Below, piece after piece: positions 19,355 through 64,000 of a DNA stretch of 64,000 bases (position 1 is the first letter of the stretch; each line of letters begins with the position of its first letter). Position numbers and translations under genes: made by a program. The stretch is from Diplonema japonicum. Lineage: Eukaryota; Protista; Euglenozoa: Diplonemea. The stretch covers positions 248,001 through 312,000 of the forward strand of contig OZ025665.1 in the NCBI GenBank assembly GCA_964019335.1, written 5' to 3'. Under the pieces are notes generated by a model. It did not search any database, was not told where the DNA came from, and saw nothing but the letters and a program-made list of their open reading frames with translations.

Positions 19355-19419
19355 CGTATTGAAACATATAAATCCTGTGATTTTAATGTTTAATTTTAAT
19401 GTTTAATGAAAGTGACGGG

Positions 19420-22191: not shown

Positions 22192-22222
<31 letters not shown>

Positions 22223-23466: not shown

Positions 23467-23538
23467 TTCCGGCACGGGGAATTGAACCCCGGTCTCCTGG
23501 GTGAGAGCCAGGTGTTCTAACCACTATACTATGCCGGA
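23467..23538 (-). tRNA. tRNA-Glu(CTC)
   Basis: Minus strand TCCGGCATAGTATAGTGGTTAGAACACCTGGCTCTCACCCAGGAGACCGGGGTTCAATTCCCCGTGCCGGAA, followed by T6. Confidence 0.95.
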
Positions 23539-23542
23539 TTGA

Positions 23543-24637: not shown

Positions 24638-25179
24638 ATTGATTTTTTTTTTTAAATAATAATAATAATAAATGAACCACTGACGTGCGAAGCAAAGGCT
24701 GGGGGGGGGGACAGAACAGGTGGACCAAGGGTCTCCCTGTATCTAACGAAAGGGGGAAAGGAATGTGATAACCTTGAAACTTCCGCTAAACTATCCATAC
24801 GTACCGAGGACGGAGGTGGGGCCGGTTCGTGGGCTCCAGTGTTCGCGACTTCGCCCACCTCCGTGACCCCGGCAGCTCTCCAGCCCGCTTCCCAAGCCAG
24901 CACCCTTCGGGCGAACCTCCGGGTTTTTGAGGAGTGGGGTACCTCGTCCGTGCTCGCCCTCACGAGCGGCACACTGGCACGGAGGCATCCCCTTCAGCCA
25001 GCTTTGTTGGGCGGCGGAGCCTTAGAAAATTCAAAACAAAGGGAAATGATACGGGGGGATGTGTGAAGGGGCGGGGAAAGGTGAAGACAGAAGTTGGGGT
25101 GCACGACAGGGTAATAATGGGAAACACAGGGGGAGGGGGAGAGGGTTCACTAGTACTTTTTGGTTCACTTTTTTCTGTT

Positions 25180-25210
<31 letters not shown>

Positions 25211-25255
25211 CTACGTCCTGCGATTGCGGTCAGCGGCTCGGCGGTCGTGAGAGTC

Positions 25256-28200
25256 TCAGATGAGGTCCATCCTCTTCAGGTAGGAGGCGGTTTCACTCAC
25301 CCTCATTGTGAGCATCTCCTTCGTGGTCGTGGGGATGTCATCCCCGAAGATCTCTTCGCGGACCTTGTCTCCAGCTGGGCACCCGATCAGCAGATGGTGT
25401 CTGTCCTGGATCGAATGGCACGAGAGGCAACGTATGTCATTCTGGACGGGTTTCGACAGGAAACCGCAAGTCAGGTGGCTCCTGCCCGTTCGCAGTCTCG
25501 TTATCTGTACCTCATCGTGTCTGCAGGACAGTTCCTTCAAGGGGAGGTACCTCGCGCCGATCTCCTCTCGGTACTTCTTGTCCCGACCCGTCTTCTCCCA
25601 CGAGGCTGCCCAGTCGCGGTTCACCGACCTCTTGATGAGGCTCTTTGTGGTCATCAGGTCCGTCGGTCCGTCCGGTGTCGACTCCTTTGCGGCGCGTTTG
25701 GCGTGTCGGTCGGCTTGCTCGTTACCTGGTAGGCCGCAGTGTCCGGGAACGTACTGGATGATGGTGGAGAGGCCTTGGCGGTCAAGCGCGTCCAGCCATT
25801 TCCAAGCCAGCAGTTCCTCCTTCTGCCTCATCTCTCTGTGGCCCTGCATCAGTCTTCTGATCACCGACTGGGAGTCCGAGCACAGCAGCACTACTCCGGT
25901 CGTCACACCTTGTCTCCGGGTATGGTACAGTGTCAATTGCAGCCCCAGGTTCAGCGCTTTCAGTTCGCATCGGTAGGCCGAAGTCACTGCTCCTCCGCTC
26001 TTGCGTGCCTGCTTCGGTGTGTCAGACCCGATCCTTATCACAGCTGCCGAACCGCCGTTCCTGTGTCCGGTGACTGACCCGTCGGTGTAGACGATCACAT
26101 CTGGGATGCCGTGCCTCCTGATCGATTCGAAGGCCGCTCGGAGTTTGAGACTTTTTTCGTCCTTCTTGTGTACCTTGCGGACTAGGTCGGGGTGGAACAG
26201 GACTTTGGGATGGACCCATGGAGGGAGCTGCAGGTCTGCGCTCTGAGTGACTGAGTGGTGTGGTAGGTCTTCGCGTTCCGGCATCCCGTGACTCTTCGCC
26301 AAGTCGAGCGCGGTGTTTCGCCAGCTTTTCCCGTACCACATCTGACCCCCGGATATCTTTGTTGCCTTCTCCGCTGTTGTCCCCGGTTGACGCTGTGCCT
26401 TCTCGTAGAGCACCAGGGTGTCGTGTTCCAGCAAGGATTCAATCTCCCAGATGCCCGCCTCTGACCTGGTCACCGTCGCGGAAGTCTTGTCGAAGCATCC
26501 CGTTATCAACCTCGCTGCTGTGTATTGTAGCGAGTCGAACTCGGCCAGAGCAGCATGTCCCACGAAGTTGCCGTAAGCACCGAGACAGTAGCGCAGAACC
26601 GGTTGGACGTACGTCAGGTACAGCGTCCTTAGGGTGTGCTTGCGGCAGCCCCACCTTGTTCCGGCGAGTTTGCGCAGCAGGCGAAGACGGCTGTTGATCT
26701 TTCCCTTCACCTTCTGCACATGCTCGTGGAAGTTCATGCTTTCGTCGAAGGTGACGCCAAGATATTTAGCCTCGCGTACCACCTTGACTTTCGCCCCACT
26801 CGAGGGGAAGCGGGCGTTGATGAGGTTTGCGAGACTGTCGTGCGAGTTCCAGAACTGTCCCTCTACCGGCATGAACTCTGTCTTTTCCTGGGACAGTTTC
26901 ATCGAGAACGTCTCGCACCATCGCTCCGTGAGGCTCACCGCGCGTTGCACCTTCTTGTTCAGCTCGGCAGGACTCCCCGCCTCCAGCACTATCGCTATGT
27001 CGTCTGCGTACACTACCGCGTCGATTCCAGCCTTCCTGTACAACCTGGCCAGGTCGTTGACGTAGATGGAAAAGAGCTGCGGGGCCAGGATGGTGCCTTG
27101 GGGTACGCCCCCTGTCATTGTCTTCACGCAGCCGTGTTCCCCGTTCACACAGACGGAGGCTTTACGTTGGTCGAGGAAAGAGGTGATCCATTTCACGAGC
27201 TTGGGAGGGTATCCGTCGCCTATCAGCTTTGCGATCACTCCCTTGTGCCAGACTGTGTCGAAGGCTCCTTTGAAGTCGAACAGCAGGAGACCCCCCAGAC
27301 CTTGGCTCAGTCTGACACTTTTGAGCTTTGAGGCGGCGTACAGCACGTTTTCCTCCGTGGACCTCCCTTTCCGGAAACCCGCCTGCGATGTGTGCAATTG
27401 CCTTACCCGTCCTGTGTCCTGCAGGAAGCACATCCTGTCCTTGACTATTCGCTCCAACGTCTTCACGATGTTTGACGTCAGCGCGATCGGCCTGTACGAG
27501 GCGGGTTCGGATTGGTCTTTGCCCTTTTTCATGAGGGGGATGATGGAAGACCGCCTCCATTCGGCAGGGACGACACCGGTCTGGAGGGATGAGTTGTAGA
27601 GGAGGAGTTGAACTTCCCTGGCCACCGGTCCCAGGTACTTCAGCATTTCGTTGTAGATGCCGTCTGGGCCCGGAGCCTTGCCCTTCTTCAGCCTTCGCAG
27701 CACCGAGTCCAGCTCGTCCTTCGTTACCAGGGGGAAGTCGTTGTCTGTCCCGGGCTTCGCGTCCTTCTTGATGGTGGTGATCACTTCCTCCGACTTGGCA
27801 GTCGTCCTTGGGGAGCAGGCCCTCGCGTAGTGTTCGACGAGTACACTGGCCTTCTCCCTGTCGGTGGTGGCGATACCGTTTCCTCGTCGGAGCGGGGCTA
27901 TTGGTGGCTTCTCGCTGCGACCGTCGAATCTGCGGATGACCGAGAAGGCTTGCGTCAGGTTTCCGTCCTTGGACAACTTCTTGGTGTAGTCGCCCCAGGC
28001 AGCCTGCTTCCCGCTCGTTATCGCCCTGTCCAGCTCAGCCTCCATCGCCGCTAGACGTGCCAGGTCTTCGTCGTTCCCGTCGTGATCCTCGGACAACAGC
28101 TTCGCCTTCAGTGTGCTTCGTCGCCTTGCGAGTGCGTCAATCTCGTCGTTCCACCAAACCTTCCCTTTCTTCTGTCCTTTCCTGGGGACGCACGATTCGG

Positions 28201-29581
28201 TTGCCGATAGAAGAAGTGTGCGAAACTCAGCGTTTAGCCTTATCGGGTCTCTGGCCCTGAGCAGCCTGCTGCACTTTTCTTCCATCGTCTCCCTGTACGC
28301 GCTCCTTGCCTCCTTCCCCCAAGAGTAGAGTACTCTTCTGGTCGGTTGGCTGACTCCCCCTCTCAGACTGAAGAACATCGGAACGTGGTCTGAGCCCATT
28401 GCTGGCAACGTCCTCCAAGAAGATTTGTCGAACTCTGCGCCGCTCATTACCATGTCCGGAGAGGTTGGGTTTCCTGACGGGTTCAGGATCGTGGCTTCGC
28501 TGCTCTTGTTCCATGTGCTGTAGCCCCATCGCAGCATCCAGCTGTGCAGTATTTCTCCCAGCTTATTCGGTGTGCCCCTTTTGTCCCACATCGTGTGGTG
28601 GGCGTTCATGTCACCGGCGATGATGGTGTAACTGTCATGAGGCAGCTCTGCCGGGCGGAAATATTTCTCGGGGGGTGGTCTGTCGTCGCCGTCTCTACCC
28701 GTTGTCGGAGGCAGGTACAGGTTGACGAGTCTGTACGGCTTCCGGTTGGGCATCGAGATCTCTACGTCGAGTCTTTCCGTCACGTCGCTGGGTTTCTGAA
28801 GAACTTCGATCTGTTTCGACGGTATCGATTCTCTGACCAGTGTGACGAGACCCCCTCCGCTGATTTGCTTTCCTCTTTTCACCGGTCGTGTTCGGTCTCG
28901 GCGGTATGCCTTGAACCCAGTGAAGACTCCGGTTATATCTTTCGACGGCCTCAGGAAAGTCTCTTGGAGTAGGAGCACGTCGATGTTGTGTGTCTCAATG
29001 CCCTTCAGCAGCTGCGCTGTGGTGCTCACCGTTAGGGATCTGACATTGAGAGACAGTACGTTGATGTTGTTGGGTGGTGGTGTTGTGTTGGAGTGTGCCT
29101 GTGAGAGAGAGGAAGTAGAGGGGACGGGAGGGAGAGAGTGTTCAACTCTTGTTGTCTTTTCGGTGGTTGGACCGGGGTTCGCTTCTATGTCCCCGCAGCT
29201 CAGTAAGTGTTTTCCGTGCGGACCGCTGGCTGCGGGATTTCTGCGAATGTGAAGATTGCCTGTGTGGTCACCCCTAGGTCCAGGCCTTTGGATACTGGGT
29301 AATACTTCGTCACCGGTGACGGGAGTTTGTGAGTGCTTGTTTGGGGAGGAATTGTGCGTGGAGAGAGGGAAAGATGAGGGATGGTGATGTGGTGATGATG
29401 TGCTGCCTTTGCGGTCACCCCAGCTTCCAGGGCTTGAGAGGCTGGGTAGTACTTCATCTTCGTTTAGATGGGGTGTAGTGTTGGGGGTTTGGGAGTAGGG
29501 ACAGGGAGTGAGAGACGGTGTGGGAAAGGGGGTGAAAGGGGTGTTGAATGAGATTGCACGGCCCTTAGTACTGGCCTTCAA
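25256..29581 (-). CDS. Family B ORF2: 2A peptide + APE endonuclease + reverse transcriptase + RNase H + CCHC
   Basis: LLSCGDIEANPGP; SLNVRS, LQET, GDMNAH, GSDH (APE); QAGFR, DFKGAFD, GVPQG, YADD, YLG (RT); YTDGS, SDSQS, GNEQAD (RNase H); CLSC..H..C. No AUG precedes the 2A. Confidence 0.95.
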   Translation of the reverse strand: MKASTKGRAISFNTPFTPFPTPSLTPCPYSQTPNTTPHLNEDEVLPSLSSPGSWGDRKGSTSSPHHHPSSFPLSTHNSSPNKHSQTPVTGDEVLPSIQRPGPRGDHTGNLHIRRNPAASGPHGKHLLSCGDIEANPGPTTEKTTRVEHSLPPVPSTSSLSQAHSNTTPPPNNINVLSLNVRSLTVSTTAQLLKGIETHNIDVLLLQETFLRPSKDITGVFTGFKAYRRDRTRPVKRGKQISGGGLVTLVRESIPSKQIEVLQKPSDVTERLDVEISMPNRKPYRLVNLYLPPTTGRDGDDRPPPEKYFRPAELPHDSYTIIAGDMNAHHTMWDKRGTPNKLGEILHSWMLRWGYSTWNKSSEATILNPSGNPTSPDMVMSGAEFDKSSWRTLPAMGSDHVPMFFSLRGGVSQPTRRVLYSWGKEARSAYRETMEEKCSRLLRARDPIRLNAEFRTLLLSATESCVPRKGQKKGKVWWNDEIDALARRRSTLKAKLLSEDHDGNDEDLARLAAMEAELDRAITSGKQAAWGDYTKKLSKDGNLTQAFSVIRRFDGRSEKPPIAPLRRGNGIATTDREKASVLVEHYARACSPRTTAKSEEVITTIKKDAKPGTDNDFPLVTKDELDSVLRRLKKGKAPGPDGIYNEMLKYLGPVAREVQLLLYNSSLQTGVVPAEWRRSSIIPLMKKGKDQSEPASYRPIALTSNIVKTLERIVKDRMCFLQDTGRVRQLHTSQAGFRKGRSTEENVLYAASKLKSVRLSQGLGGLLLFDFKGAFDTVWHKGVIAKLIGDGYPPKLVKWITSFLDQRKASVCVNGEHGCVKTMTGGVPQGTILAPQLFSIYVNDLARLYRKAGIDAVVYADDIAIVLEAGSPAELNKKVQRAVSLTERWCETFSMKLSQEKTEFMPVEGQFWNSHDSLANLINARFPSSGAKVKVVREAKYLGVTFDESMNFHEHVQKVKGKINSRLRLLRKLAGTRWGCRKHTLRTLYLTYVQPVLRYCLGAYGNFVGHAALAEFDSLQYTAARLITGCFDKTSATVTRSEAGIWEIESLLEHDTLVLYEKAQRQPGTTAEKATKISGGQMWYGKSWRNTALDLAKSHGMPEREDLPHHSVTQSADLQLPPWVHPKVLFHPDLVRKVHKKDEKSLKLRAAFESIRRHGIPDVIVYTDGSVTGHRNGGSAAVIRIGSDTPKQARKSGGAVTSAYRCELKALNLGLQLTLYHTRRQGVTTGVVLLCSDSQSVIRRLMQGHREMRQKEELLAWKWLDALDRQGLSTIIQYVPGHCGLPGNEQADRHAKRAAKESTPDGPTDLMTTKSLIKRSVNRDWAASWEKTGRDKKYREEIGARYLPLKELSCRHDEVQITRLRTGRSHLTCGFLSKPVQNDIRCLSCHSIQDRHHLLIGCPAGDKVREEIFGDDIPTTTKEMLTMRVSETASYLKRMDLI

Positions 29582-30275
29582 CCTTCCTTTTTACGGGAGG
29601 GTTCACCTTGTGCAGGGGCGTTGTCTGCGAGGGGGTGGTGTGTAGGGTTGTCTGCCTTGTTGTGGCAACTCCTACGAGCCTTTCGGCTGGTGGGGGGGTG
29701 TCGTAGCATAAAGGTGCTACGGTACCCTTTCTCTCCGGTGTCGCAGCGTGCCTGGGGCAGTCTGGGGTGTCAGTCCCCTCGTCAGCGCCATCGGTGGACG
29801 GCACGTGTCCCCTCTGTTCTGGGGACCCGTCTGCCTCCTCGGAGGTTCCTGGTGGGGGGGCTCCTGTAGTCAAGTGGATGAGTAATCTGTTCATCCCTTG
29901 CTTCAGCTCCTCCACCGACCGCTCCGTCCTCTCCGATGACGCCTTCAAGGAAGAAATCTCCCCCCTCAGGCCACCAAGCTCGCCCTCCACCAGGCCCACC
30001 CTCCTGTTCAGCTCCTCAGTCCTCTCGTCCGTACGCACCCCTCTCATCTCCACCTCTTCCACCTTCCTCTCGCACGCCTTCTCCCACAGCCCGGCCTGTT
30101 CCCTCGCCTGCTCCAACTCGGCAATCCGCCTGTCCATGGCTTCCCTCCAGCCCCAGTCGTCCTCCATCCCGCCTCCCTCTTCCTTCTCGGCGCTCTCCAG
30201 CGCCTGGATCCTCGCCTCCAGCTTCTCCTCTCTTTCCCTGGCCTCGGCCTTCCTTTTTGCGGCTTTGGCCCCATT
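29565..30275 (-). CDS. Family B ORF1 (coiled-coil, partial)
   Basis: E/R/K-rich heptads (REEKLEARIQALE...VEELKQGMNRL). The called ORF beyond 30275 runs into the upstream element's (TTA)n tail. Confidence 0.7.
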   Translation of the reverse strand, partial: NGAKAAKRKAEAREREEKLEARIQALESAEKEEGGGMEDDWGWREAMDRRIAELEQAREQAGLWEKACERKVEEVEMRGVRTDERTEELNRRVGLVEGELGGLRGEISSLKASSERTERSVEELKQGMNRLLIHLTTGAPPPGTSEEADGSPEQRGHVPSTDGADEGTDTPDCPRHAATPERKGTVAPLCYDTPPPAERLVGVATTRQTTLHTTPSQTTPLHKVNPPVKRKVEGQY

Positions 30276-41890: not shown

Positions 41891-41900
41891 TGCGGGGACC

Positions 41901-45217: not shown

Positions 45218-45233
45218 CTGCGGGGACCTTTTT

Positions 45234-46554
45234 AATAATAATAATTATTCCACTACCAGGCGGGGGGGATGGGGGGCGGAGAAAGTTGAAACCATAAAAA
45301 TTGGGAAGGGAAGGTTAAAAACAGTCTCTCTTACTGAGCCATATCGGGGGGGACCTCTTGCTCGTTTGCTCGACCTCTTGTATATTTTCCTGGGGCCCCC
45401 GACATCCACCTTTCTTATTTTTTCCCCATTCCCCCGCCACGCAGCTCTTGGGCCTCGAAGGCTTCGGCTGTCACCAAATAAAGACAACCCCAAATATTAA
45501 AGGGCGGCGATGAGATCCCTAATTTTGATTTATCCAGCCACAGGGACCCCACCATCTGCTGGTTTTGTTGGGCTGTGGGAGCCTAAAATATAAATTTGAA
45601 AAGGAAATGTAAAAGGAAAAGTCAAGTTCAGAACTCAACTTCCACAAAGAAGGGAGGAATGCATAACTAGAAAAGGAGCCTGGTAGGGAAAATAAAAAGA
45701 AAGGGAAACCAATGGGGGAGGGGGAAAAAGAATTACTGGTTACTATTTCTAAAAAAAAAAACCCCCTTCTCAGCTGCGAAAGATGTTTTTCCAACGAGAC
45801 TCCCTATCGCGTAATGACGCGGGCGCACCAGGTAGGCCGGCGAGTGCTGTGGAGTCAATCGTCAGCGGGGAGGAAGAGGTTGTGAGAGGCGAAGTAGAGG
45901 AGGGGGGCACGTTGGCAGATAACCCACCGGCCTTGGGCTTTCCCCGTGTGCGACAGGTCACACAATGGTGTTCCTTACACCCCTATGCGGTTCTGCCTGC
46001 CTACCCACCAGAAGTCGGACCTTCACCGAGAGACTGTGTCACACAATGGACTTACATCCCTTGAGGTGGTCCACCGTACTTGACGCCTCCGCTCCGCTTC
46101 TCTCTCCGCGGGAACCCAGCCTACAACTCTGGTGGCTGGAGGACCCACTTTGAAATCGAACCCCTCACGTGGAAAACACTGTTGCGCACTCTGGACATTT
46201 TGCATTAATCTTGTTTTCTGTCGGCAAACAGTGCTCCCCACGCTCAGGCCACTTCGCTCGGGCGTTCAGGTCAGCTTCCCCAGGAAAACCATCAAACGGC
46301 GTCTCCGGATCCGGTCCTCGTTCTGGCGTGCAGGAGGCTTCCCCAGGGGATGCCATCCAACACGGCGCTCCGGCTCCGGCCCTCGGCCGCCCAACGCAAC
46401 ACCGTTCCCCTGCTCCTCCTCTCGAGCTGCCTCTCAGCCGCGCAACCTTCACCACCTGCGCGTTGCCCAGGGACCACCACCGTGGAGGTGGGCAGCCACC
46501 ACACACACCGCGTTCGTCTACATGTTCATGTGTGTGTGTAATCGGACCCCGATC
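45234..46554 (-). mobile_element. Element E: non-coding, non-autonomous retroelement with a 5' HDV-like ribozyme and a C-type 3' UTR
   Basis: No RT ORF. 45234-45590 is homologous to the C 3' UTR (CAGTCTCT..TACTGAGCCAT; CTGCTGG..TTGTTGGGCT..GGGAGCC). It has a (TTA)n tail and is flanked by the GGACCTTTTT duplication. Confidence 0.8.
46425..46550 (-). ncRNA. HDV-like self-cleaving ribozyme (5' end of element E)
   Basis: Minus strand: P1 GGGGTCC/GGTCCCT (one U-U mismatch), J1/2 hairpin ACACACAC/GTGTGTGT, P2 GGCTGCC/GGCAGCT, P3 ACC/GGT, L3 TCCACGGT, GG-GCAA, P4 CGCGCA/TGCGCG, J4/2 G-C-TGA with catalytic C at 46437. Confidence 0.82.
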
Positions 46555-51892: not shown

Positions 51893-52007
51893 TCTCCCCG
51901 GAAAAATTTAGGGCAAGAAGAAAGACAAGCACAAGGAGAAGGCAAAGCCGGAAGGGAACGGGGCCAGCACGCAGCTGGCCCAGTCCAAGGCCAGGGAGGA
52001 GCGGCGG

Positions 52008-54827
52008 GTGGAGAGGATGCTCCGCAGCGCTGGAGCAGCCGGGGAGCTGGGGCAGCTCCTGACGCCGGAGCACCGGGAGAAGATGACGGGGGTGGTCACC
52101 GTAATTGACCTCCTCACGCCCGACGCCGCCGCCGCTACAGCCGGCCCAGCGACACCTGTCGCCTCCACCCCGACCGGCTCCGTCAAAAGGCCGGTTTCGC
52201 CTGACGCCAGCGTCGCCACCCCGACCTCCAGCAAAAAAGCTAGGAGGAAGGCCGCCAGAGCCGCGCGCGCTGACGCTGCCGCCGAAGCCGCACACATAGC
52301 TGACGCCACACACCCCCTCGAAGCCGCACGCACTGCGGCCGACGTCGAACTCGCGGGAATCGCTGCTGATTTGGAAGCTGCACGCGAGTCGGCCGACGTG
52401 GTAGCTGCAGAAATAGCAGCTAAGATGAAGGCTGCGCAGGAGGTGGCTGATGCTGCTGTTGTCAAAATGGCAGCCGAGACGGAAGCTGCTCGCGTGGCTG
52501 GTGTGGAGGCTGCTCGCAGAGCAGTCGAGGCTGAGGAGAAGGCTCTGCGCAAGCGGTCTACTGCACGACTTGCGGCAGAGGAGAAGGAGGCTGCGCGTGC
52601 TGCGGCCGAGATGAAAGCAGCCGAGGAGAAGAAGGCTACAGCCGCAGCCGCTGCAGCCGAGAAGAAGAAAGCCGCAGCCGCCGCCGCCGCCGAGAAGAAG
52701 GCCGACGCCGAGAAGAAAGCAGCAGCCGCCGCCGCCGCCGAGGAGAAGGCCGCCGCCGAGGAGAAGGCCGCCGCCGAGGAGAAGGCCGCCGCCGAGAAGA
52801 AAGCCGCAGCCGCCGCCGCCGCCGCCGAGAAGAAGGCCGCAGCCGACGCCGCCAGGAAGAAAGCTGCAGCCGCCGCCGCCGCCGCCGCCGAGAAGGAGAC
52901 CGCAGCCGCAGCCGCCGCCGCCGAGGAGAAGAAGAAGGTCGCAGCCACCGCCGCCGCCGAAAAGGAAGCCGCCGCAGCCGCTGCCAAAAAGGAGGAAGCT
53001 TTGAGGTTGGCGGCCGCCAAGAAGGCAGATGCCCAGAAGGTCGAGGACGAAGCAGTCGCGAACGCTTCCGCCAACGCGTCAACAGACCAAGGCACGCTCC
53101 TCCTCAGCTCAGACTCTGACACCAGCTCTGGCCCTGAGGAGATGGAGGACGACCCTGCCCCTGCCCCTTCCACAACCCCGCAATGGGACCTGGTGCCAGA
53201 CACATGGGACGCCCCGATCTACACCAACGTGTCCCCCCCGACGGAAACATCCCGCGCTGTCATTGCGCTCGACGATCCCTCCGAAATGGGGGTCGTGTGC
53301 TCCGCGTTACCTACGGCATCCATCACCTTTGTCCTTATGACAGAGGTCCCCGGTGTCACCACCCCCAGCGAGATTGTCATGGTCTCTGGGTCGCGCGCAG
53401 TGAACAGGAGGGTCCACGTCTCCACGTTCGGGCTGGACCCCCCCACCTACACCCCGCCTTCCACCTTCAACAGCGGATCGGAGGTCGTCTACGTCTGTGT
53501 CAGTGCAGACAGCCTGAAGGAGGCGAAGGCCAGGGTCCTGGAGCTCGCCAAGGCTCAGGGCGCGGTGGTGGAGGATCGTGCGGTCTTCCGCCCAAGGAAG
53601 TTCGGTGAGGAGGAACCGCGGGCGAGGCACTGGACCCACGAGGTGGGACTGCGCCTGCAAGCAGCACACGTCCACGCCGTCCTGCGCCGGTCCGGGGACG
53701 GGTGCATAATGCGGACGACGGAGAGACGCGGGGGGTACGCTTATGTACCTATCGTGGCGGAAGGGAGGGCGGATGCCTTTCGGATTGCGGGGACGCTGGG
53801 TGGGTTGTCTCTCGGGGTGGCGCACCGTAAGGGATGGACTGTGCGGTGCCTACCGGAGACGGAACAGCGGCTCCGGAAGGCCCTCGCAAAACAGCGCACG
53901 AAGCGCAAGTTTTTGCTCACCGGGGCCCCGCCGTCCATCACCAGGGCGGCCTTCGACGAAGTGATGGACCACATCGGTTGGAAACCATCCTCCGTCCTGC
54001 GACGCACGCAGACGATGTTCCAGGGCACGAGGCAACTCGTGTTCTTCATCGTCGTCGACAGCCCGCCCCCGAAGTCCAGGACGTGGCTCCTTGGGGGGCG
54101 CCTTGTCTGCCTCCGTGATGCGGACGACCACCCGACCGTCAAGCCGCCCCCTCTCATCAACAGGACGACACCTGCATCTGCACCTGCGCTTGCAACGTCC
54201 TCGACCCCGGCACCCACATCTTCTCATGTACCTGCACCTGCGCCTACACCTGTACCTGACCCGGCACCTGTATCGGCGTCGACACCCTCGGGGACTGGCC
54301 CTGCGGTGAAAGCAACTGGGCTTCCTCCCACCAGCCCGTGGGCGTCCATACCGAGCTCGGTGGCTCCCCCCCAGCTCGACACTGTGACGTCCCCTACACC
54401 GCCCCGCAACGTGTCTGCGGGAAACAAGGAGGGGGTCCCTTCCGGGTCGCCTGAGGTCGCCGCTCTCACTGAGCTCGTCGCCACGCTGAAGGAGTCGATC
54501 GTCGGGCTGCAGAGGACGATCGACTCTCAGCAGGAGATGATCTCCGATCTGCGGACGACGCTCCGCCTCCTCCTGCCGCAGGCGGCCACGCTGACGACGG
54601 GAACGGCAGTGCCGCGGGACCCTACACCGGGGGCGACGACGACACACGACAGTGTCTGGAAAGGGAAGGGGAAGGGGAAGAAGGGGGCTCCTCCTCTCGC
54701 TACGACCTCTGAGGCTGCGGTGACGAACCTGGGTACGAGGGGGCGGGCCAGGTCGTTCGCGGAGACCAAAGATCTCTTCACCAATGGGGTCAAGGGGCGC
54801 TCTGCCTCCATGGGTCCATCCAATTGA
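52008..54827 (+). CDS. Family A ORF1 (Ala/Lys/Glu-rich helical repeat, conserved globular domain, Pro-rich linker, coiled coil)
   Basis: 939-aa ORF with AAAEEK repeats. The core WDLVPDTWD...HEVGLRL...RSGDG is shared with A2 and F. Confidence 0.85.
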   Translation: MERMLRSAGAAGELGQLLTPEHREKMTGVVTVIDLLTPDAAAATAGPATPVASTPTGSVKRPVSPDASVATPTSSKKARRKAARAARADAAAEAAHIADATHPLEAARTAADVELAGIAADLEAARESADVVAAEIAAKMKAAQEVADAAVVKMAAETEAARVAGVEAARRAVEAEEKALRKRSTARLAAEEKEAARAAAEMKAAEEKKATAAAAAAEKKKAAAAAAAEKKADAEKKAAAAAAAEEKAAAEEKAAAEEKAAAEKKAAAAAAAAEKKAAADAARKKAAAAAAAAAEKETAAAAAAAEEKKKVAATAAAEKEAAAAAAKKEEALRLAAAKKADAQKVEDEAVANASANASTDQGTLLLSSDSDTSSGPEEMEDDPAPAPSTTPQWDLVPDTWDAPIYTNVSPPTETSRAVIALDDPSEMGVVCSALPTASITFVLMTEVPGVTTPSEIVMVSGSRAVNRRVHVSTFGLDPPTYTPPSTFNSGSEVVYVCVSADSLKEAKARVLELAKAQGAVVEDRAVFRPRKFGEEEPRARHWTHEVGLRLQAAHVHAVLRRSGDGCIMRTTERRGGYAYVPIVAEGRADAFRIAGTLGGLSLGVAHRKGWTVRCLPETEQRLRKALAKQRTKRKFLLTGAPPSITRAAFDEVMDHIGWKPSSVLRRTQTMFQGTRQLVFFIVVDSPPPKSRTWLLGGRLVCLRDADDHPTVKPPPLINRTTPASAPALATSSTPAPTSSHVPAPAPTPVPDPAPVSASTPSGTGPAVKATGLPPTSPWASIPSSVAPPQLDTVTSPTPPRNVSAGNKEGVPSGSPEVAALTELVATLKESIVGLQRTIDSQQEMISDLRTTLRLLLPQAATLTTGTAVPRDPTPGATTTHDSVWKGKGKGKKGAPPLATTSEAAVTNLGTRGRARSFAETKDLFTNGVKGRSASMGPSN

Positions 54828-54968
54828 AGGGGCCCCGCAGAACAGGGGGAGCAGCAGATCTACGACCATGCTCCCTCTCCTAGTCTCCCTCGCATCCTCC
54901 CCAGGAGACTCCTACCTCTCTGTTTCTTCACCGACTTTTCTGCACTGATCCCCACCCTACTCGGGAGG

Positions 54969-57900
54969 ATGTCCGTCAGGGACCTGCTGGGGCTGCTTGG
55001 GCTGGTCGAAACAAACCCTGGCCCACCCAAGAAGCTGCCGCCCCCGTCGCCTAAGGGTCTCAAGGTTGTCTCGTGGAACTGCAACGGCCTCGTTGCGAAA
55101 TGGACCGTCGTATCTCGCCATGCTGACTTCTTGTCGCTGGACATCATCATGATACAGGAGACGCACCTGAGGGAAGGGCACGACACGCCACACCTGCCTG
55201 GGTACAGGTCATACAGGAGGGATCGGTTGACACCGGTGACTGACGGCACTGCGACGAGGGGTGGTGGTATTGTCACGTATGTCCGCGACGATCTTGCCTC
55301 GGAGGAGGTTCCGCACGTACTCCCGGCTGGGGACTGTGTCACTGAGAGACTGGATGTGAGGATCTCCTGCGAGAAGCGTGAGCCGATCACTCTCTCCAAC
55401 GTTTACCTTACACCGGTAAGCGCGAGCAGAGGCACGAGGGACCCTGAGTACCTGCGGCCTGGCAGCCTTCCCATGGGGAAGAACACAGTCATAGCGGGTG
55501 ACTTCAATGCTCACCACAGCTCCTGGGACGCCACGGTGACGACGCCGAACGAGAGGGGGAACGTGGTCAGGGACTGGCTGGACACCCACGGGTACTCCGT
55601 CTACAACGACCGCAACGAACCGACGAGGGACTCGTCACGACACGTTCTGGACCTGGTTGTGGGGCGCTGCGCGAAGCTTGAGCCGAAGACGCTGGGCACG
55701 TGGGGCTCCGATCATAGTCCCGTATCCTTTCACCTGCCTCTTGAGGACGTCTACCGTTCGGAGCGCCCCTTCCCCACCTGGAATTTCAAAAAAGCCAGAT
55801 GGGATGACTACACTGCTGCTGTTGCCCGCCTGCTTGCTGGTGTTGACACGGCGGCTCCGATTGACTCTGTCACGAAGGGGTTTACACAAGCCCTTTTGAC
55901 TGCGGCGAACGACCACATTCCCCTCTGTGGGATGCGACGTGGCCCGACCCCCTGGTGGACTGCTGAGCTCGAGGATGCCTTCGAAGAGCGGAACACCCTG
56001 CGTGAACTCCTGCTTCAAGAGGCGGACGTGGTGGAGGAGTACAGGGCGAAGGTGAAAGAAGTCAACCGACTTCTTGACGAGACGAAGCGTGAGGCATGGG
56101 GAAGGATGGCGGCCGACCTCAGCCGGAGCAAGGACCTCGGGGCTGCGTTCAGAGCGGTGAAGAAGCTGGACGGCAGGCACCGAAAGACACACCTTCCTGT
56201 ACTCGAGGGAAGATTTGTGTCGGACAAGGCGAAGGCCGACCGGCTGGGGGCGCACTTCGCTAAGCTCTACGGCAGGCGTGGTGACGGGAACTCGAAGGAC
56301 GCCGCTCCTTCTGCAAGCAGACTCGGGTGTCAAGCGTTCACCGTGGACGACCTCACCCGCGGCCTGAGAAGGATGAAGACGCGCAGCGCGGCCGGGGAAG
56401 ACGGAATCTTCTCGGAGATGCTCCTACACCTGAACTCGGACTCCCTCGGTGTTCTCCTTCTACTCCTCAATCGCTCCTGGCTGATGGGTGTCGTCCCCGG
56501 CGCCTGGAAGAAAGGAGTGATCGTCCCGGTACCGAAACCTGGAAAAGATGCGACTCTCTTGGCTTCCTACCGGCCGATCTGCCTGACCAGCTGCCTCTGC
56601 AAGCTGCTGGAGAGGATGATCGAGGAGAGGCTCACGTTTCTTCTTGACGCGGACGGGACGGGAGTCGAGGGACTCCACGACAGCCAGGCTGGTTTCAGAC
56701 GCGGCCGCTCCACGGAGGAGCAGGTGGCAACCCTCACTGAGTGCATGTCGAGGAACAAAGACGATCGACGTCTCTCGGCCGCTCTGCTGTTCGACTTCTC
56801 TTCTGCCTTCGACCTGGTGCCCCATGGTGCCCTGCTGGACAAGATGCGAGGGAAGGGTCTCCCCGAACCCTTCGTGGAGTGGACGCGGTCCTTTCTATGC
56901 GGCCGTACTGCTGCGGTCACGATTGGACGGTCGAGGGGGTCGACGACGAAGGTGCGACGGGGTGTCCCCCAGGGCTCTGTCTTGGGTCCCATCCTGTACA
57001 CCATCTACGTCGACGAACTCGCCAGGAGACTGGAGGGACTGGCGGACGTCTCGGTGCTCTACGCCGACGACGTGGCGGTTGTGATCTCCTCTGGACAAGG
57101 GGACGTGGCTGGGCTGGAGCGGAAGGCGCAGGCAGTGGTGGATGCGGTTGAGGACTGGTGCAGGGAGCGTGACATGCTGCTGAGCACGTCCAAGACGCAG
57201 GCAGTCTGCGTCCCCCCCCAGAAACGTCTCGGGGTCTACTTCACTTCGTCACGAGTCCCCCTTCAGCCAGGTGCCTTCCAGAACCCACTCTTCGGCCTGG
57301 GGGTGAACGCCGATGGCACGATCTCCGGGGACCAGGAGCTGGCGGGCCTTCAGGTTGTGGAGGCGGGTGGTGTGCGGATCCGCTGCGTGCGGGACATGCA
57401 TGCAGCCGTGCGACGGCCCGACGTGGACTACGTTGCGGCCCGTCCCCTGCCTCTGTCTGAACACGCGAGGTACCTTGGGGTTACGGTGGACTCTGGGCTC
57501 ACGTTCGGTGAACACGCACAGGACATCCTACGGCGGGCCAGCAAAAGGCTGAGGGTGCTGAAGCTCTTGTCCGGCACGTCCTGGGGCAGCAAGAGGGACA
57601 CTCTGCGGTCTCTCTACGTTACGTACATCCTCCCGCTGCTGCGCTACTGCATGGGGGTCTACTACAGCAGGCTCGATGATGTCGGGAGGAAGGACCTGGC
57701 TGGGCTTCACCAGGAGGCGGCGGTGCTGATCACGGGCTGCTGGAGTGGCTCCGGAGGGTACAAGCTCCTAGCTGAGGCAGGACTGCTTCCCCTCGAAAGA
57801 ATGGCTGAGGGTGCTGCGGCGACGATGACGGCGAAGGCCTTCTGCTGGCAGTCTTCCCCGGTTCACAGGGAGACGGTCAAGCTGAAGCAGGCGAACAGGC

Positions 57901-59116
57901 TGGGGTGTGGGTGGCTGCGCTCTGGCTACCAAGCACTGCGTCGATGCGGGTTGGAACCAAAGGTGCACTTCGAGTACCTGTCGGCTACGCCCCTGGCGGC
58001 CCCGTGGCAGACAGGCATGGTCGACTTCAGGACTGACCTCCCCGGCGGGGTCACGCGATCGTCGCCAGACGCGGACAGGCGGAAGGCGGCCGAGGCTGCT
58101 CTTGCGGCTCTCCCCCCGGGCATCCATGCCTACACGGATGGCTCGGTTGTACAGGTCGGACAGAAGGCGAAAGGTGGCTCTGGGGTTTATCTGCAGCTGC
58201 CTCCCCCCCTGACCCCTGTGTCTGTGTGCCATGGCGTCAACGACTTCTGTTCATCTTTTCGGGCAGAGGGCATGGCTGTGAAAACGGCGCTGGATATGGT
58301 GGCTACCCTCCGAAAAACACACCCTTCGCTGGCGAAGTCCCCGCTGTCGATCTGCACCGACTCCCTCTCCCTCGTCGAGCAGCTGCGAGCTGGCCCAACG
58401 CGACAGAGGGAGAAGCTCGACCACCAGACGTGGGCCGGCTGGTGTCCGCGGCGCGCACGCAGGGGACACCGGTGGTCCTCCAGTTTGTGCCCTCCCACTG
58501 TGGGGTGGACGGGAACGAGAAGGCTGACGCTCTGGCCGGGGAGGGAACGAAGCGGAAGCAGGACAGGCCCTCCCTTGACTACCGATCAGTGAGGGCCCTG
58601 GTGCGACGGTGGGTGGTGCGGAGGTCCGCGGAGCTCATAACATCCCTCGCCCACAACTACGCGGTGGCGACCGAGCTTCGGTCTGCGCACTTCCCCCTTG
58701 GCTTCCCCAGACAAGCTGAAACGGTCATCTCGCGGCTGCGGATTGGTCACTCGGCTCTCTTCTTCGGCTTCCTGCAGACTGCTGGCCCGAACAGGAAGCA
58801 CAAGGGTGTGCTCCGGTGCCCAGCCTGCCACGCAGCACCGATGTCCAGGGAGCATGTTGTCGGTGGGTGCCCTGTGATCGGGAGGGGGGCGATCGACACT
58901 CCTGCTGGTACTCCCTCCCTAGCGTTCTCCCTGTCGAGACGCGTGACCCAGATCTACGACCTCATTGTTGAGTCTGGCCTGCTCGCCTGGTCACGCTCCG
59001 GACTGTTCACCTCGCCATCATCCCTGGCGTCTACAGACGTCACTGCACCTTCAAACGTGCCGCCTCCTCCTCCGGTCTCTCTTGACGCCGGTCCCGCGGC
59101 CCCCGTGCTGCGCTAA
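54969..59116 (+). CDS. Family A ORF2: 2A-like peptide + APE + RT + RNase H + CCHC (frameshift near 58433)
   Basis: GLVETNPGP; SWNCNG, IQET, GDFNAH, GSDH; GVPQG, YADD; YTDGS, TDS. It continues in the frame of ORF 58226..59116 (VPSHCG..NEKAD, CPAC..H..C). Confidence 0.92.
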
Positions 59117-59567
59117 GGGATCGCCCCGTGTGTGTGTGTTAAATGGAATGTTGTGTTTCCCACTTTCCTTTCCCTTCCTTCTCCTTCCTCTCACTGTTTC
59201 CCATTTCCCCTTTTATTTCACACTCACCAATGATTCGCTCAATAGGAGCAATACCTCCCTGGGGGGCTTTCCGCCGGAGGTTCCAGCCAAAGAAGGACAT
59301 CCAGCTGGAAGGTAGGCCCCCGTTTTTCTCTCACTTGACTGAGGGAATAATGTAATTCAGCCCTCTTCGGCTGTCCCAAAGCAGAGCACGGGTTGGTGGG
59401 GGACCAGGGCTCCTCCTGCTTGCAGAAGCCTGGTCCTTTGCCCTCCCTATTTCCCCATGGTTTCCCTTCACCTTCTTTTCCATTTTCTCAGGTGTTGCTC
59501 TCCATGGCGGCCCTGCATTGGTATTTTGAAAAAAAAAAAAAAAAAAAAAATAAAAAAAATAAAATAA

Positions 59568-59684
59568 GGGGGTTGGGGTACACATAAAAAAAAGAACAAC
59601 AACATGGTGTGAAGTATCCTGCGCTGTCCTCCTCGTGGTGGCCCCTGGGATCGCAGGCCAGGGAGGGCTGTGGTGCGAAAGCGC
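59568..59684 (+). ncRNA. HDV-like self-cleaving ribozyme (5' end of element G)
   Basis: P1 GGGGGTT/GGCCCCT, J1/2 hairpin GGGGTAC/GTATCCT, P2 GCGCT/AGCGC, P3 CC/GG around L3 TCCTCGT, P1.1 GG, P4 ATCGCAG/CTGTGGT, J4/2 G-C-GAA with catalytic C at 59676. Confidence 0.82.
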
Positions 59685-59829
59685 GAAGGCGTGTCGGGGA
59701 GGGTGCCGGAACGAAGACGGTCTGTTTGGCACAAGCCGCTATCGGGGCACCGGTAGCGGGGGTGTAAGACCACTCAGACTCGGTCTGAGCAAAAGGCATT
59801 CTCTCCCATCGCGCGGCGTGTGCGTGGTT

Positions 59830-60310
59830 GCGTGCGGCGGCGACACCCACCGTTCCTGTTCATTCCACCAGCGTCGAGAGGCTGAGACCGACCTCGCGCA
59901 CAGTGGAGGCCACAGGTTGTTCCCGGCGCCCTTGTAGCGTTGTCAGTCCTGCCCCAACTGAAAGGCCAGTCAGGACACAGGCTAACTGGGTACAGGTACT
60001 CGGACAACGGTGGGGTGAACAGGAGCGGTGGGTTGTGGCTGGTGTCGCTGGTGAGTGGCGTACGGTTTGTTTGTGCTGGTTCCGCTGTGTTGTGGTGTGA
60101 TGCGTGCGGCGGCGTCGCCCAGTGTTCCAGCGTACCCCATCCGAGAGTCGTGAGGCTGAGACCGGTCTCGCGCGAAGTGGAGGCCACAGTGTTGATCCCG
60201 GCGCCCTTCAGGCAATGACCGCCCTGTCGCAACTGGAAGGCCAGACAGATCGGTAGCCGAACTGGGTACAGACAAACGGATCGACGGTGGGGTGCACGGG
60301 GACACTGGAA
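59830..60310 (+). repeat. Two diverged tandem copies (period ~271 bp) of a structured module inside G
   Basis: TGCGTGCGGCGGCG...GAGGCTGAGACCG...AGTGGAGGCCACAG...CCCGGCGCCCTT...AACTGGGTACAG...ACGGTGGGGTG occurs from about 59829 and from 60101. Confidence 0.85.
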
Positions 60311-60918
60311 GAGAACTGGTTGCGGTGGAGGTGCTCTAGTCTGTCTGTGTGGCGTGTGCTGCTGGGAGCGAGGCGTGCTGTGCCGGGCCGGCAAGAAGTA
60401 GAAGTAGATTTAAACTTTTTTAGTAATAGTACTCTCATCCCCCATGTCTTCCCTTTTTATTTTGCCCTGTCGTGCACCCCAACTTCTTTCTTCCTCTCTG
60501 GTTATGTTTTCTTTACAATTTTATTTTCCAAAGGCTCCACAGCCCAACAAAACCGGCTGAAGGGGATGCCTCCGTGCCGGTGTGCCTACGAGCACTGACG
60601 AGGTACCCCACCCCTTGAAATCCCGGAGGTTCGGCCAAAGGGTGCTGTTGTGCAATGCGGGCTGGTGAGATGCCGAGGGACGTTGAAGGTGGGCACAGTT
60701 GCGAACGCTGGGAGCCCCCGGGCCTGCCCACCTCCCGCCTCGGTACGTATGGATAGTTGTGGGAGGGTTTTCTTTTACAAAAAATTTTGTCAACCCCTCT
60801 TGTTCCCCCTTTCACTTGCAGGAGGCCCTTCAGGCCTCCTGCGCCTATCCCTCCCCCCCAGCCTTTAGCTTCGCACGACAGTGGTACATTTATTATTATT
60901 ATTAAAAAAAAATTTAAG

Positions 60919-61000
60919 GGCGAGATGGCCGAGCGGTCTAAGGCGTTGCGTTAAGGCCGCAATCTCTTCGGAGGCGTGGGTTCAAACCCCACTCTCGTCA
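60919..61000 (+). tRNA. tRNA-Leu(AAG)
   Basis: Acceptor GGCGAGA/TCTCGTC, anticodon arm TTGCG-TTAAGGC-CGCAA, variable arm, GGTTCAAACC, T6. Confidence 0.95.
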
Positions 61001-61120
61001 CTTTTTTACGTTCTCCCGTTGATCAGGAAAAGGCCAAAATACCGGACACAAGCCGCAAATTTGCAAAGAAAAGAAAAGAAACATGTCCAGATACCTTGTT
61101 TCCACCCGTTTCAGTTGTCC

Positions 61121-61193: not shown

Positions 61194-61449
61194 TCTTTTT
61201 TTTTTCCCAGGTCAAACTTTAGAAGTGTCTAATTTTTGTGTTTGTTCTTTTCTTCTCTCCCATTTGACATCATTTCAGTGTGGAGCCACTTCATGGATGT
61301 AAGCGCTTGACCACACAATGTTCACTTGTCGAATACAATGCTGTGGCGTGGGTGTGGACAGACTTGACAAAGGCAAAACTGCATCTTACGATGCGCCACC
61401 ACCTTGACAGCGATAAAACCGCAAAACCTTATGTCCGTCCGTTTCAGTT

Positions 61450-64000
61450 GAAGAAGAGGCCTGCGACACCGCCCTCCCCATGTCGGACTCTGACACCGAC
61501 GAGAACACGGCCCCCGCTCCCGCACCGGCCCCAGAGCCTCGCTGGGATCTGGTCCCCGACACGTGGGACGCCCCCATCTACACCAACACTGCTCCCCCTG
61601 AGGAGGTGCCCCGCGCCGTCGTCGCTCTCGACGACCTCCAGCAGGTGGACGCGATTCGCACTGCGAGGCCCACGGCCTCCCTGACCTTCGTCCTCTTGAC
61701 GGAGGTTGCCGGTTCGACCACCCCATGCACCGTCATCGTGCTCGCCGGCCAGCGTGTCGTGCACAAGGCCGTGCACACCTTCTCGGTCGGGTCGAACCCC
61801 CCCTCCTACACCCCACTCGCTTCTTTCGATGGCGGCTCTGAGGTAGTGTACGTCAGCGTGAAAGCTGACAGCGTGAACGCGGCGAAGGCCAGGGTTCGGG
61901 ACCTCGTCGCGACCCAGGGCGTGGCGGTGGAGGAGCAGGCGATCTTCCGCCCGAAGAAGATCGACGGGAACGAGCCGCGGGCGCGTCACTGGAGCCACGA
62001 GGTGGGCCTGCGGCTCCCGGCGGCATCCGTCCATGCGGTACTCCGGGCCTCGGGCGACGGCTGCATGGTCAGGACGACCGAGCGGCGCGGGGGGTACACC
62101 TACGTGCCCATCGTAGCGGAGGGGAGGGCGGAGGCCTTCCAGCTGGCGAAGGCACTGGGCGGGTTGTCCCTGGGGGTGGCCCATCGCAAGGGTTGGACCG
62201 TGAGGTGCCTGCCGGAGACGGAGCAGCGTCTGAGGGAGGCCCTCGCCAAGCAGAGGACAAAGCGACGGTACCTGCTCACCGGAGCCCCGCTGTCTGTTAC
62301 CAGGGCAGCCTTCGACGGGATGATGGACCACATCGGTTGGAAGCCGTCGTCCATCATCCGACGCTCTGACACGGCGTTCCAGGGCACGAGGCAACTCGTG
62401 TTCTTCATCGTCGCCGACGCCCCGCCCCCCAAGGCCAGGACATGGCTCTTCGGCTCTCGTCTCGTTCGACTGCACGACGCGGAGGACCACCCGAGCGTCA
62501 CGCTCCCGCCCCGCACCAACAAGAAGGCTCCACCCGCGGCTCGGACGCCGGTTGCGGCAACCACGGCCCAGACGCCGACGCCGGCCCCTGGCCCCACGGT
62601 GCAGTCCACAGGGCTGCCGAGCACCAATCCGGTCATCTCCACCGAGCTCTGTTGCCCCTCCGCCACTTGGCACTGTGACTCCGGTCTCCTCTGCGGCTTC
62701 CCCGACCACGACAACTCCCCGTGACTCCCAGAAGAAGAATCCCGCACCGGAACCTGAGGTCCCGGCGCTCCTCGCGCTGATCCAGTCGATGCAGGCGACC
62801 ATCGACGGTCTGCAGGCGACGGTCCGCGACCTCCAGGAGAAGATGGCAGCGTCACTTGGCGCGCCGGCGTCATCTGCAGACGGAGCTGGGCGGACGGCAG
62901 TTGCTGGGAAGGGCAAGGGCGGCAAGGCTGGGTCCAAGGCAGGGACGAAGGGGCACCAGGCGCAGGGCGTAAGCACGCCAGGCCCCTACCCGACATCGAC
63001 GGAGCAAGGGGGCGGAAGGGGACGCGCCCAGTCGCTGGCTGGCGACTCTGCTTCCCCCAACGGGGCCGGCCGTGGACGGGCAGCCTCTGTGGGCCCGGCC
63101 CCCGCCCCTGCCAATTGAAGGGGTCCCGCTGAGCAGGGGGGGCGTCAGATCGACGACCACGCCCCCTCTCCTGGTCTCCCGCGCATACAGCCGAGGAGAC
63201 ACCTTCCACATCACTTGTACGACGTCCTCCCTTCCTTGATCCCTTCCTTACTTGAACGGATGTCGGCCAGGGACCTGCTGGGGCTGCTTGGGCTGGTTGA
63301 GACGAACCCCGGTCCACCTAAGAAGCTCCCACCCCCGAAGCCGAAGGGACTCAGGGTCCTGTCCTGGAACTGCAACGGTCTTGCCGCCAAGTGGTCAACC
63401 GTGTCCTACCACGCTGTCCTACTGACGCTGGATATCATTATGATCCAGGAGACACACCTTAGGGAGGGGCATGAGACACCATACCTGCCTGGATACACGT
63501 CCTACAGGAGGGACCGCACAACACCGGTGACGGACGGCTCTGCGACGAGAGGCGGTGGTGTCATCACGTATGTCCGTGACTGCCTTGCCTCGGAGGAAGC
63601 TCCTTTCGTACTCCCTGAAGGTGACAGTGTCACCGAGCGATTAGACGTGAGGATCTCCTGTGTGAAGCGCGTCCCGGTCACCCTCTCCAACGTGTACCTC
63701 ACGCCTGTGAGTATAAGCAGAGGGACAAGGGACCCCGAGTACCTACGGCCGGGCAGCCTACCTGTGGGGAAGAACACGATCGTTGCTGGCGACTTCAACG
63801 CACACCACAGCTCTTGGGATGCCAAGGTGACAACGCCCAACGAAAGGGGGAACGTGGTCAGGGACTGGCTTGACACCCACGGCTACACGGTCTACAACAA
63901 CCGTGACGAGCCGACGCGGGACTCACCGCCATGCGTTCTGGACCTGGTGGTGGGACGTTGTGCGGAACTGGAGCCGAGGACGTTGGGGACGTGGGGCTCT
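61450..64000 (+). mobile_element. Family A2 (diverged A relative), 5'-truncated, continues beyond the window
   Basis: ORF1 pieces 61480..62724 and 62552..63118 are homologous to A ORF1. TGA at 63116-18 is followed in frame by MSARDLLGLLGLVETNPGP from 63260 and an APE domain running to the window end. Confidence 0.9.

What the first reader, a model, noticed from the sequence alone, without database searches (positions are those of the whole stretch)
59568..60912. Second, sequence-distinct ribozyme-headed non-autonomous element (G) using the family B 3' UTR
Seen: G begins at the predicted ribozyme G1 (59568), directly after family A's poly(A) tail. It has L3 TCCTCG and J4/2 GCGAA as in genomic HDV, a non-coding body and a B-like 3' end abutting tRNA-Leu. 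E and G share a design and size (~1.3 kb; ribozyme + structured repeats + borrowed 3' UTR) but pair with different autonomous families. Inference: parallel LINE/SINE partnerships competing for tRNA sites.
Basis: partly seen in the sequence, partly recalled or inferred. Interest (0 to 1): 0.76.

Follow-up and report, generated by a model that had tools for sequence, protein, structure and literature searches.

The report
Ribozyme-headed parasite of tRNA-targeting retrotransposons
A 1.3-kb non-coding, multi-copy element in a probable diplonemid protist starts with a predicted self-cutting RNA and ends with the tail of a neighbouring retrotransposon family, whose enzyme it likely borrows to insert just upstream of tRNA genes, a design already known from fruit-fly rDNA and trypanosomes.

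Summary
G (59568-60912) starts with an HDV-type fold (P1 7 bp, catalytic C59676), has a non-coding body with two ~270-nt structured repeats, ends with ~490 nt of family-B-like 3' UTR (379 of 466 aligned letters) and sits 6 nt upstream of tRNA-Leu. It is the tRNA-proximal member of a stacked array. Five of six tRNA genes in the window carry such arrays, built by APE-RT-RNase H LINEs whose closest named relatives are Diplonema proteins (up to 82%). Public assemblies hold G at high depth, in several sequence variants within one run and as a ~97% identical relative in another organism label, so it is not a single relic. Caveats: cleavage is untested, P1 and P3 are weak, Rfam does not recognise G's fold, its target-site duplication is imperfect (6 nt), mobilisation by B is inferred from the tail, and E lacks the long repeats. 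It works like Drosophila R2/R1 hybrid SIDEs and trypanosome NARTc/RIME, with Dictyostelium purpureum NLTR-A-like targeting. It is not a Pol III SINE. New variant of a known kind.

The parts
59568..59685 (+). Predicted HDV-like ribozyme head of G; predicted cut 5' of G59568, catalytic C59676
   Evidence: core shared with E; no Rfam hit; 59651 is C in the contigs of the 3 of 4 runs that cover it, making a P4 U.G a C-G
59686..59828 (+). Spacer; variable at 59707-59721; a different 5' head joins at 59701 in contigs of two runs
   Evidence: tables 3 and 7
59829..60045 (+). Internal repeat 1, closed by a 25-bp stem
   Evidence: (z -5.0, 0 of 200 shuffles)
60101..60320 (+). Internal repeat 2, 76% identical to repeat 1, outer stem kept through paired changes
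   Evidence: (z -2.4, 2 of 200 shuffles)
60421..60912 (+). Family-B-like 3' UTR ending in (TTA)n and poly(A)
60913..60918 (+). 6-nt gap TTTAAG between tail and tRNA; TAAGGG (60915-60920) recurs at 59565-59570 as a possible partial TSD
60919..61001 (+). tRNA-Leu(AAG), the target gene
51912..59550 (+). Family A LINE upstream of G, older insertion at the same site (TTTAGGGC at 51907-51914 echoes target TTTAAGGGC at 60913-60921)
24646..30270 (-). Family B LINE, stop-free 1444-aa frame with APE, RT, RNase H; likely helper; second copy 21443-22751 is 99.8% identical and lies 5-6 nt upstream of tRNA-Met
45229..46550 (-). Element E: sister non-autonomous element, HDV-like head (G1 46550, catalytic C46437), family-C-like tail

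Best explanation
G is a multi-copy, non-coding retroposon whose predicted HDV-like ribozyme likely cuts its RNA free from read-through transcripts and whose B-like 3' UTR likely recruits a family-B LINE protein, which would copy it into the site a few bases upstream of tRNA genes. Shown: anatomy, tail kinship with B, position in a stacked tRNA array, several variants at high depth in public assemblies. Inferred: (1) transcription comes from upstream (family A or host read-through), since G has no Pol III box pair near its head; (2) self-cleavage at 59567/59568 makes the 5' end; (3) B-clade ORF2 binds the 3' UTR, nicks next to the tRNA gene and reverse-transcribes by target priming; (4) each new copy lands between the previous element's tail and the tRNA, so G is the youngest member of its array. 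Origin is likely chimeric (a ribozyme head shared with E, joined to a B-clade tail), as in R2/R1 hybrid SIDEs.
For: G1 falls 17 nt after A's poly(A), and E's G1 9 nt after its neighbour's tail; P2 and P4 differ in sequence between G and E yet pair in both. Tail is B-type, not A- or C-type; 81% over aligned letters equals the 81% 3' identity of R2Dwi_SIDE to R2 (PMC3414825). B is intact with a 99.8% copy. Five of six tRNA genes have a tail 4-10 nt upstream, with exact TSDs of 10 nt (Ser array) and 9 nt (Glu array) showing that new copies land tRNA-side; run X1 holds G in contigs of depth 976 (head), 1191-1247 (body), 1470 (3' UTR) while its rarest variants have depth 76-88 and others 210, 457, 505, 646, 754; X3 has a G contig at 13474 against 482 for the flank behind tRNA-Leu; X12 (another organism label) has one 1125-nt contig over 59733-60842 with 28 other letters and 20 gaps at depth 26 against 4 for its tRNA-Leu contig, and no cover of A's tail.
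Against: No cleavage or expression data. P1 has three wobble pairs, P3 only two Watson-Crick pairs, and nested folding (which cannot model the pseudoknot) prefers a competing hairpin, with P1 and P2 near probability 0. Rfam misses G. G's own TSD is at best 6 nt and the left junction has 17 unexplained nt. Contig depth is not a calibrated copy number, the runs' kind is not on record, no single-copy host gene was laid, and X1 may be the window's source. No second G insertion site was seen. Strain variants do not uniformly keep the repeat stems: 2 kept, 1 new pair at 60131, 1 broken at 59850.
Confidence: 0.62

Rival explanations
1. G is a plain internal-deletion derivative (SIDE, NARTc/RIME type) of an unseen B-related LINE that itself carries the ribozyme and the repeats as its 5' UTR.
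For: Only one window was seen and no genome is held; ingi, R2, RTE and Vingi make such bipartite elements (PMC5786205, passages); 19-24% divergence from B leaves room for a closer parent.
Against: In X1 the G 3' UTR contig (1470) is only slightly deeper than the body (1191-1247), so no abundant LINE carries G's exact tail; no ORF relic in G; no descriptor hit at the 5' ends of the long LINEs, and B, D and A begin at or next to ORF1; the head is shared with E, whose tail is from another family.
Confidence: 0.17
2. The HDV-like head no longer cleaves; it is kept as a promoter-like DNA signal (as Pr77 is also a promoter) or is decaying, and G's 5' end is made otherwise.
For: Weak P1 and P3, competing hairpin, no Rfam hit, an alternative head in two runs; Pr77 is both promoter and ribozyme (PMC4035085, background).
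Against: All core elements and the catalytic C are present, the majority letter at 59651 strengthens P4, G and E keep P2 and P4 through different sequences.
Confidence: 0.1
3. G is a dead relic whose copies arose by duplication or gene conversion of tRNA-Leu loci, not by retrotransposition.
For: tRNA-Leu itself is multi-copy in X1 (contig depth 811, three downstream flanks); no second G site seen; imperfect TSD.
Against: G body is deeper than tRNA-Leu in X1 and 6-fold deeper in X12; G persists in X12 where A's tail is not covered; it lies tRNA-side of an A copy 99% identical to another, so it arrived recently.
Confidence: 0.06
4. G is mobilised loosely by any of the local LINEs (A, C, D) through its (TTA)n/poly(A) tail, and the B-like UTR is only ancestry.
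For: All families share the tRNA-upstream site; C-type tails also end in (TTA)n.
Against: About 490 nt of B-type UTR are kept in blocks, with 8 of 75 consensus pairs changed on both sides, and E keeps a C-type UTR in parallel.
Confidence: 0.05

Closest known systems
Drosophila R2/R1 hybrid SIDEs (PMC3414825; parts 1-4 of 6 of the text read)
   Same: HDV-like ribozyme head, non-coding middle, 3' UTR from the LINE thought to mobilise it (up to 83% identity), interspersed with autonomous copies in tandem arrays separated by TSDs at a fixed target, not Pol III transcribed.
   Different: Target is upstream of tRNA genes of several isotypes, not the 28S R1 site; the donor of the head is unknown and no local LINE has one; G is 1.3 kb with a duplicated ~270-nt structured domain; host is a probable diplonemid; cleavage untested here.
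Trypanosomatid NARTc, RIME, SIDER with Pr77/L1TcRz (PMC4035085 abstract and background; PMC3185411 passages)
   Same: Euglenozoan non-autonomous retroposons with a 5' HDV-like ribozyme, partners of APE-RT-RNase H LINEs.
   Different: There the autonomous partner carries the same head and has one ORF; here partners have an ORF1 and no detected head, G's J1/2 is 45 nt, and insertion is tRNA-anchored. Ingi-clade membership of B was not testable (no ingi or L1Tc sequence among the hits).
Dictyostelium purpureum NLTR-A and TRE5 (PMC5006619, PMC5911963; passages)
   Same: [quoted passage not shown]
   Different: Different host lineage; the words ribozyme and non-autonomous do not occur in PMC5006619's main text; TRE5 inserts about 50 bp upstream.
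Classical SINEs (tRNA, 5S, 7SL heads)
   Same: Non-coding, LINE-derived 3' tail, poly(A).
   Different: No Pol III RNA head or exact B box.

Membership tests
HDV-like ribozyme | Nested double pseudoknot P1, P1.1, P2, P3, P4 in the right order | tested here: met
   P3 has only two Watson-Crick pairs, P1 three wobbles
HDV-like ribozyme | G1 wobble at cut site, L3 starting UCC, catalytic C in J4/2 (consensus recalled) | tested here: met
   G59568.U59646, TCCTCGT, G-C59676-GAA
HDV-like ribozyme | Match to a curated Rfam HDV model | tested here: not met
   no HDV family at E<=10 for G; sister E below threshold
HDV-like ribozyme | Self-cleavage | not testable with these tools
   needs an in vitro assay
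SIDE-type non-autonomous non-LTR element | No coding capacity | tested here: met
SIDE-type non-autonomous non-LTR element | 3' end homologous to a co-resident intact LINE | tested here: met
SIDE-type non-autonomous non-LTR element | 5' end homologous to the ribozyme of a co-resident LINE | tested here: inconclusive
   no such LINE head in the window; genome not held
SIDE-type non-autonomous non-LTR element | Multiple copies | tested here: met
   several variants and high depth in X1, X3, X12; number not calibrated
SIDE-type non-autonomous non-LTR element | Same target site as helper, with TSD | tested here: inconclusive
   site met (6 nt vs 5-6 nt for B); TSD only TAAGGG
SIDE-type non-autonomous non-LTR element | Mobilisation in trans | not testable with these tools
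   needs a retrotransposition assay
SINE (strict) | Pol III RNA-derived head with A and B boxes | tested here: not met
   no tRNA or other Rfam RNA in G; no exact B box, the only loose A-B pairs lie mid-body
Ingi/L1Tc clade (helper B) | APE-RT-RNase H domain order | tested here: met
Ingi/L1Tc clade (helper B) | RT groups with ingi and L1Tc | not tested
   no named ingi or L1Tc row in the 34-row tree; B groups with Diplonema proteins and window C

The most novel reading that the evidence does not exclude
G and E are a class of ribozyme-headed SINE analogues whose helper LINEs carry no ribozyme: one head lineage has swapped tails between LINE families (B and C) and G has also swapped between two HDV-type heads joined at 59701, while the downstream tRNA could supply the 3' end by RNase P cutting of the read-through transcript. 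The element would then be excised from tRNA arrays by one ribozyme at each end.
Probability: 0.2. Interest if true: 0.72.

Novelty: new variant of a known kind. Interest (0 to 1): 0.47.

Why it matters
It extends the ribozyme-headed non-autonomous design from insect rDNA and trypanosomes to tRNA-anchored arrays in a probable diplonemid, an abundant marine group whose mobile elements have not been rigorously catalogued (PMC10161547, passages). Two elements with related heads and different tails, beside two intact or near-intact helper families, make a compact natural test of stringent 3' UTR recognition. LINEs that insert 4-10 nt from any tRNA gene may also interest those who seek site-specific RNA-templated insertion.

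Tried and rejected
No whole genome is held, so no copy census or second insertion site. No RNA holder was listed among 23 runs; this says nothing on expression. A 22-nt motif shared by G and B found 0 matches in metagenome contigs. Relatives of B in metagenome contigs were distant (80 loci, 24-34%), and 60 of those 80 scanned had no tRNA gene; viral contigs gave none. Host-gene searches gave no homologues and the Atlas gave only generic families, so the host is inferred from retroelement proteins alone and the gene layout. Rfam does not name the internal repeats. 200-nt sliding folds of G show no strong signal (best z -2.1) because the repeat stems span about 210 nt. The 211-aa stop-free frame on the minus strand (59774-60409) has no Pfam hit and was rejected as a gene. 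G1 at 59506 (6 of 7 pairs, inside A's UTR) was rejected in favour of 59568 (7 of 7). A role in tRNA processing by the ribozyme was rejected: it lies 1.3 kb upstream of the tRNA. Parts without cover (X12 over the head, X1 behind the tRNA) were not taken as absence. Literature searches for a prior report in diplonemids: 0 papers; 0; none of the listings seen describes it, and 7 supplement files of PMC10161547 hold no 'ribozyme', 'SINE' or 'upstream of tRNA'. The library lacks most subscription papers and Repbase, and I did not check whether that paper's Additional file 1 (repeat section) is among the 7 files.

Full report
Setting. The window is eukaryotic: long same-strand host ORFs up to about 19.4 kb, then arrays of non-LTR retrotransposons around six tRNA genes. 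At least four LINE families are present (A, B, C, D here), with APE, RT and, in B and C, RNase H. B's RT is 54-56% identical to a Diplonema japonicum EukProt protein and C's is 82% identical to it; in a 34-row RT tree the window elements group with Diplonema rows. The host is therefore probably a diplonemid. This rests on mobile-element proteins, since two host-gene searches found nothing. No genome is held.

Targeting. Five of six tRNA genes have an element tail 4-10 nt upstream: Glu 4, Met 5-6, Ile 5, Leu 6, Ser 10; tRNA-Ala is empty. The sequence just upstream of tRNA-Ser (10 nt, 41891-41900) recurs between E's tail and the 5' end of the A copy (45219-45228), and a 9-nt stretch at tRNA-Glu (23534-23542) recurs at 24634-24642. 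These are target duplications, and they show that a new copy lands between the older tail and the tRNA. In the Leu array the order is B fragment, full A, G, tRNA. A's left junction (TTTAGGGC) echoes the Leu target (TTTAAGGGC), so G likely came after A.

The head. G59568 opens a complete HDV-type arrangement with catalytic C59676. A strict descriptor finds only G and E in the window and nothing in 200 shuffled windows, but it was written after both were seen. The looser one has a background of 2.0 cores per shuffled window (max 7 in 60; 7 in the real window), which makes a G1 in a given 20-nt junction zone about a 5e-4 event. G and E share the core L3-P3-P1-P1.1 letters and a J1/2 hairpin, while P2 and P4 differ in sequence and pair in both. 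In the three runs that cover it, 59651 reads C, turning a P4 wobble into a C-G pair. Against: three wobbles in P1, a U.U at the base of P3, a competing hairpin in nested folding, and no Rfam HDV hit for G (E is sub-threshold). The comparison of L3 and J4/2 with genomic HDV is recalled, not computed. Activity is untested.

The body. No coding signal. Two repeats about 275 nt apart, 76% identical, each closed by a long stem (z -5.0 and -2.4); 7 of 65 consensus pairs changed on both sides, 3 of them in the outer stem. Variants from other runs are mixed: 59841 and 60133 keep pairs, 60131 faces A60296 and would add one, 59850 breaks one. Their function is unknown; my guess is protection or folding insulation of the RNA. 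E has no such repeat.

The tail. 60421-60912 aligns to B's 3' UTR with 379 of 466 aligned letters and 71 gap columns (blastn 76%). The last 80 nt match B at 63 of 80, the degraded B fragment at 52, and C, E, A, A2 at 40-46; E matches C at 53 and 57 and the rest at 40-45. B has a stop-free 1444-aa frame and a 99.8% identical partial copy, so it is a plausible helper.

Copy number. Twenty of 23 listed runs hold part of G, 10 of them half of its words or more. Four were laid over 59300-61050. In X1 G lies in contigs of depth 976-1470, with variants at 87, 210, 457, 505, 646 and 754, more states than two alleles give; against the rarest variants (76-88) the body is about 14-fold. In X3 a G contig is 28-fold deeper than the flank behind tRNA-Leu. 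In X12, another organism label, a 1125-nt contig with 28 other letters and 20 gaps is about 6-fold deeper than its tRNA-Leu contig. The tool warns that depth is no copy number, run kinds are not on record and X1 may be the window's source, so I take 'multi-copy family', not a number. X1's 3' UTR contig is only slightly deeper than the body, which argues against an abundant LINE with G's exact tail. Contigs in X1 and X12 join a different sequence at 59701; the 30 letters shown end like a P1 3' strand plus GG, and the majority letters at 59707-59717 would supply a P4 strand and GCGAA. That hints at a second ribozyme head, but 30 letters cannot establish it.

Mechanism and comparison. The best model is in Best explanation (0.62). 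The design matches R2/R1 hybrid SIDEs, which have an R2 ribozyme, an R1 3' end, shown self-cleavage, and sit among R1 copies in tandem arrays (PMC3414825, parts 1-4 of 6 read). Euglenozoan precedent is NARTc/RIME/SIDER (PMC4035085, part 1 of 7; PMC3185411 and PMC12278014, passages). Only RTE, Ingi, Vingi and R2 were reported to make such bipartite elements (PMC5786205, passages). Insertion 2-6 bp upstream of tRNAs by an RNase H-bearing LINE is known from D. purpureum NLTR-A (PMC5006619, PMC5911963, passages). G fails the strict SINE test and is filed as SIDE-like, with the origin of its head open. I found no report of the combination in diplonemids, within the limits of the library. One earlier AI note from another genome describes a similar ribozyme-headed retroposon; it is not evidence here.

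Verdict. Real feature, observation confirmed with small corrections, interpretation partly supported, new variant of a known kind, interest 0.47.

Noticed in passing
window 19600-64000: At least four LINE families (A, B, C, D) plus E and G stack head-to-tail 4-10 nt upstream of tRNA genes of five isotypes; tRNA-anchored LINE arrays were not found reported for diplonemids in my searches and may be the larger finding.
   Followed up: partly
window 59701: Contigs of two runs join a different 54-146 nt head here whose visible end resembles part of another HDV-type fold; possible ribozyme swap within family G.
   Followed up: partly
window 30270, 41580, 51912: The long LINE copies B, D and A begin at or within a few bases of ORF1, with no 5' UTR or ribozyme detected; how their RNA 5' ends are made is unexplained.
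   Followed up: partly
window 58037-58592 and 42871-43426: Both A copies have the same frame overlap near the end of ORF2, so it is inherited or programmed rather than a single error.
   Followed up: no
window 61106-61117 and 61439-61450: The same 12-mer lies upstream of the empty tRNA-Ala gene and at the left junction of an A-like element; 9 of 100 shuffles give two matches at one mismatch, so weak.
   Followed up: partly
window 22192-22222, 25182-25211, 30703-30775: B and C 3' UTRs hold an internal poly(A) tract upstream of the 430-530 nt terminal part that G and E borrowed; B, C, E and G share a short motif (60532-60551 in G) at the start of that part.
   Followed up: no
window 59683-59703 and 60849-60869: The 21 nt after the ribozyme are 71% complementary to a stretch near G's 3' end; possible long-range pairing or chance.
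   Followed up: no
window 46541-46550: E's left junction repeats the first letters of its head after a partial target duplication, typical of reverse transcriptase realignment at a full-length 5' end.
   Followed up: no
window 12221-19402: A 2393-aa stop-free frame with a SecA DEAD-like hit among the host genes.
   Followed up: no
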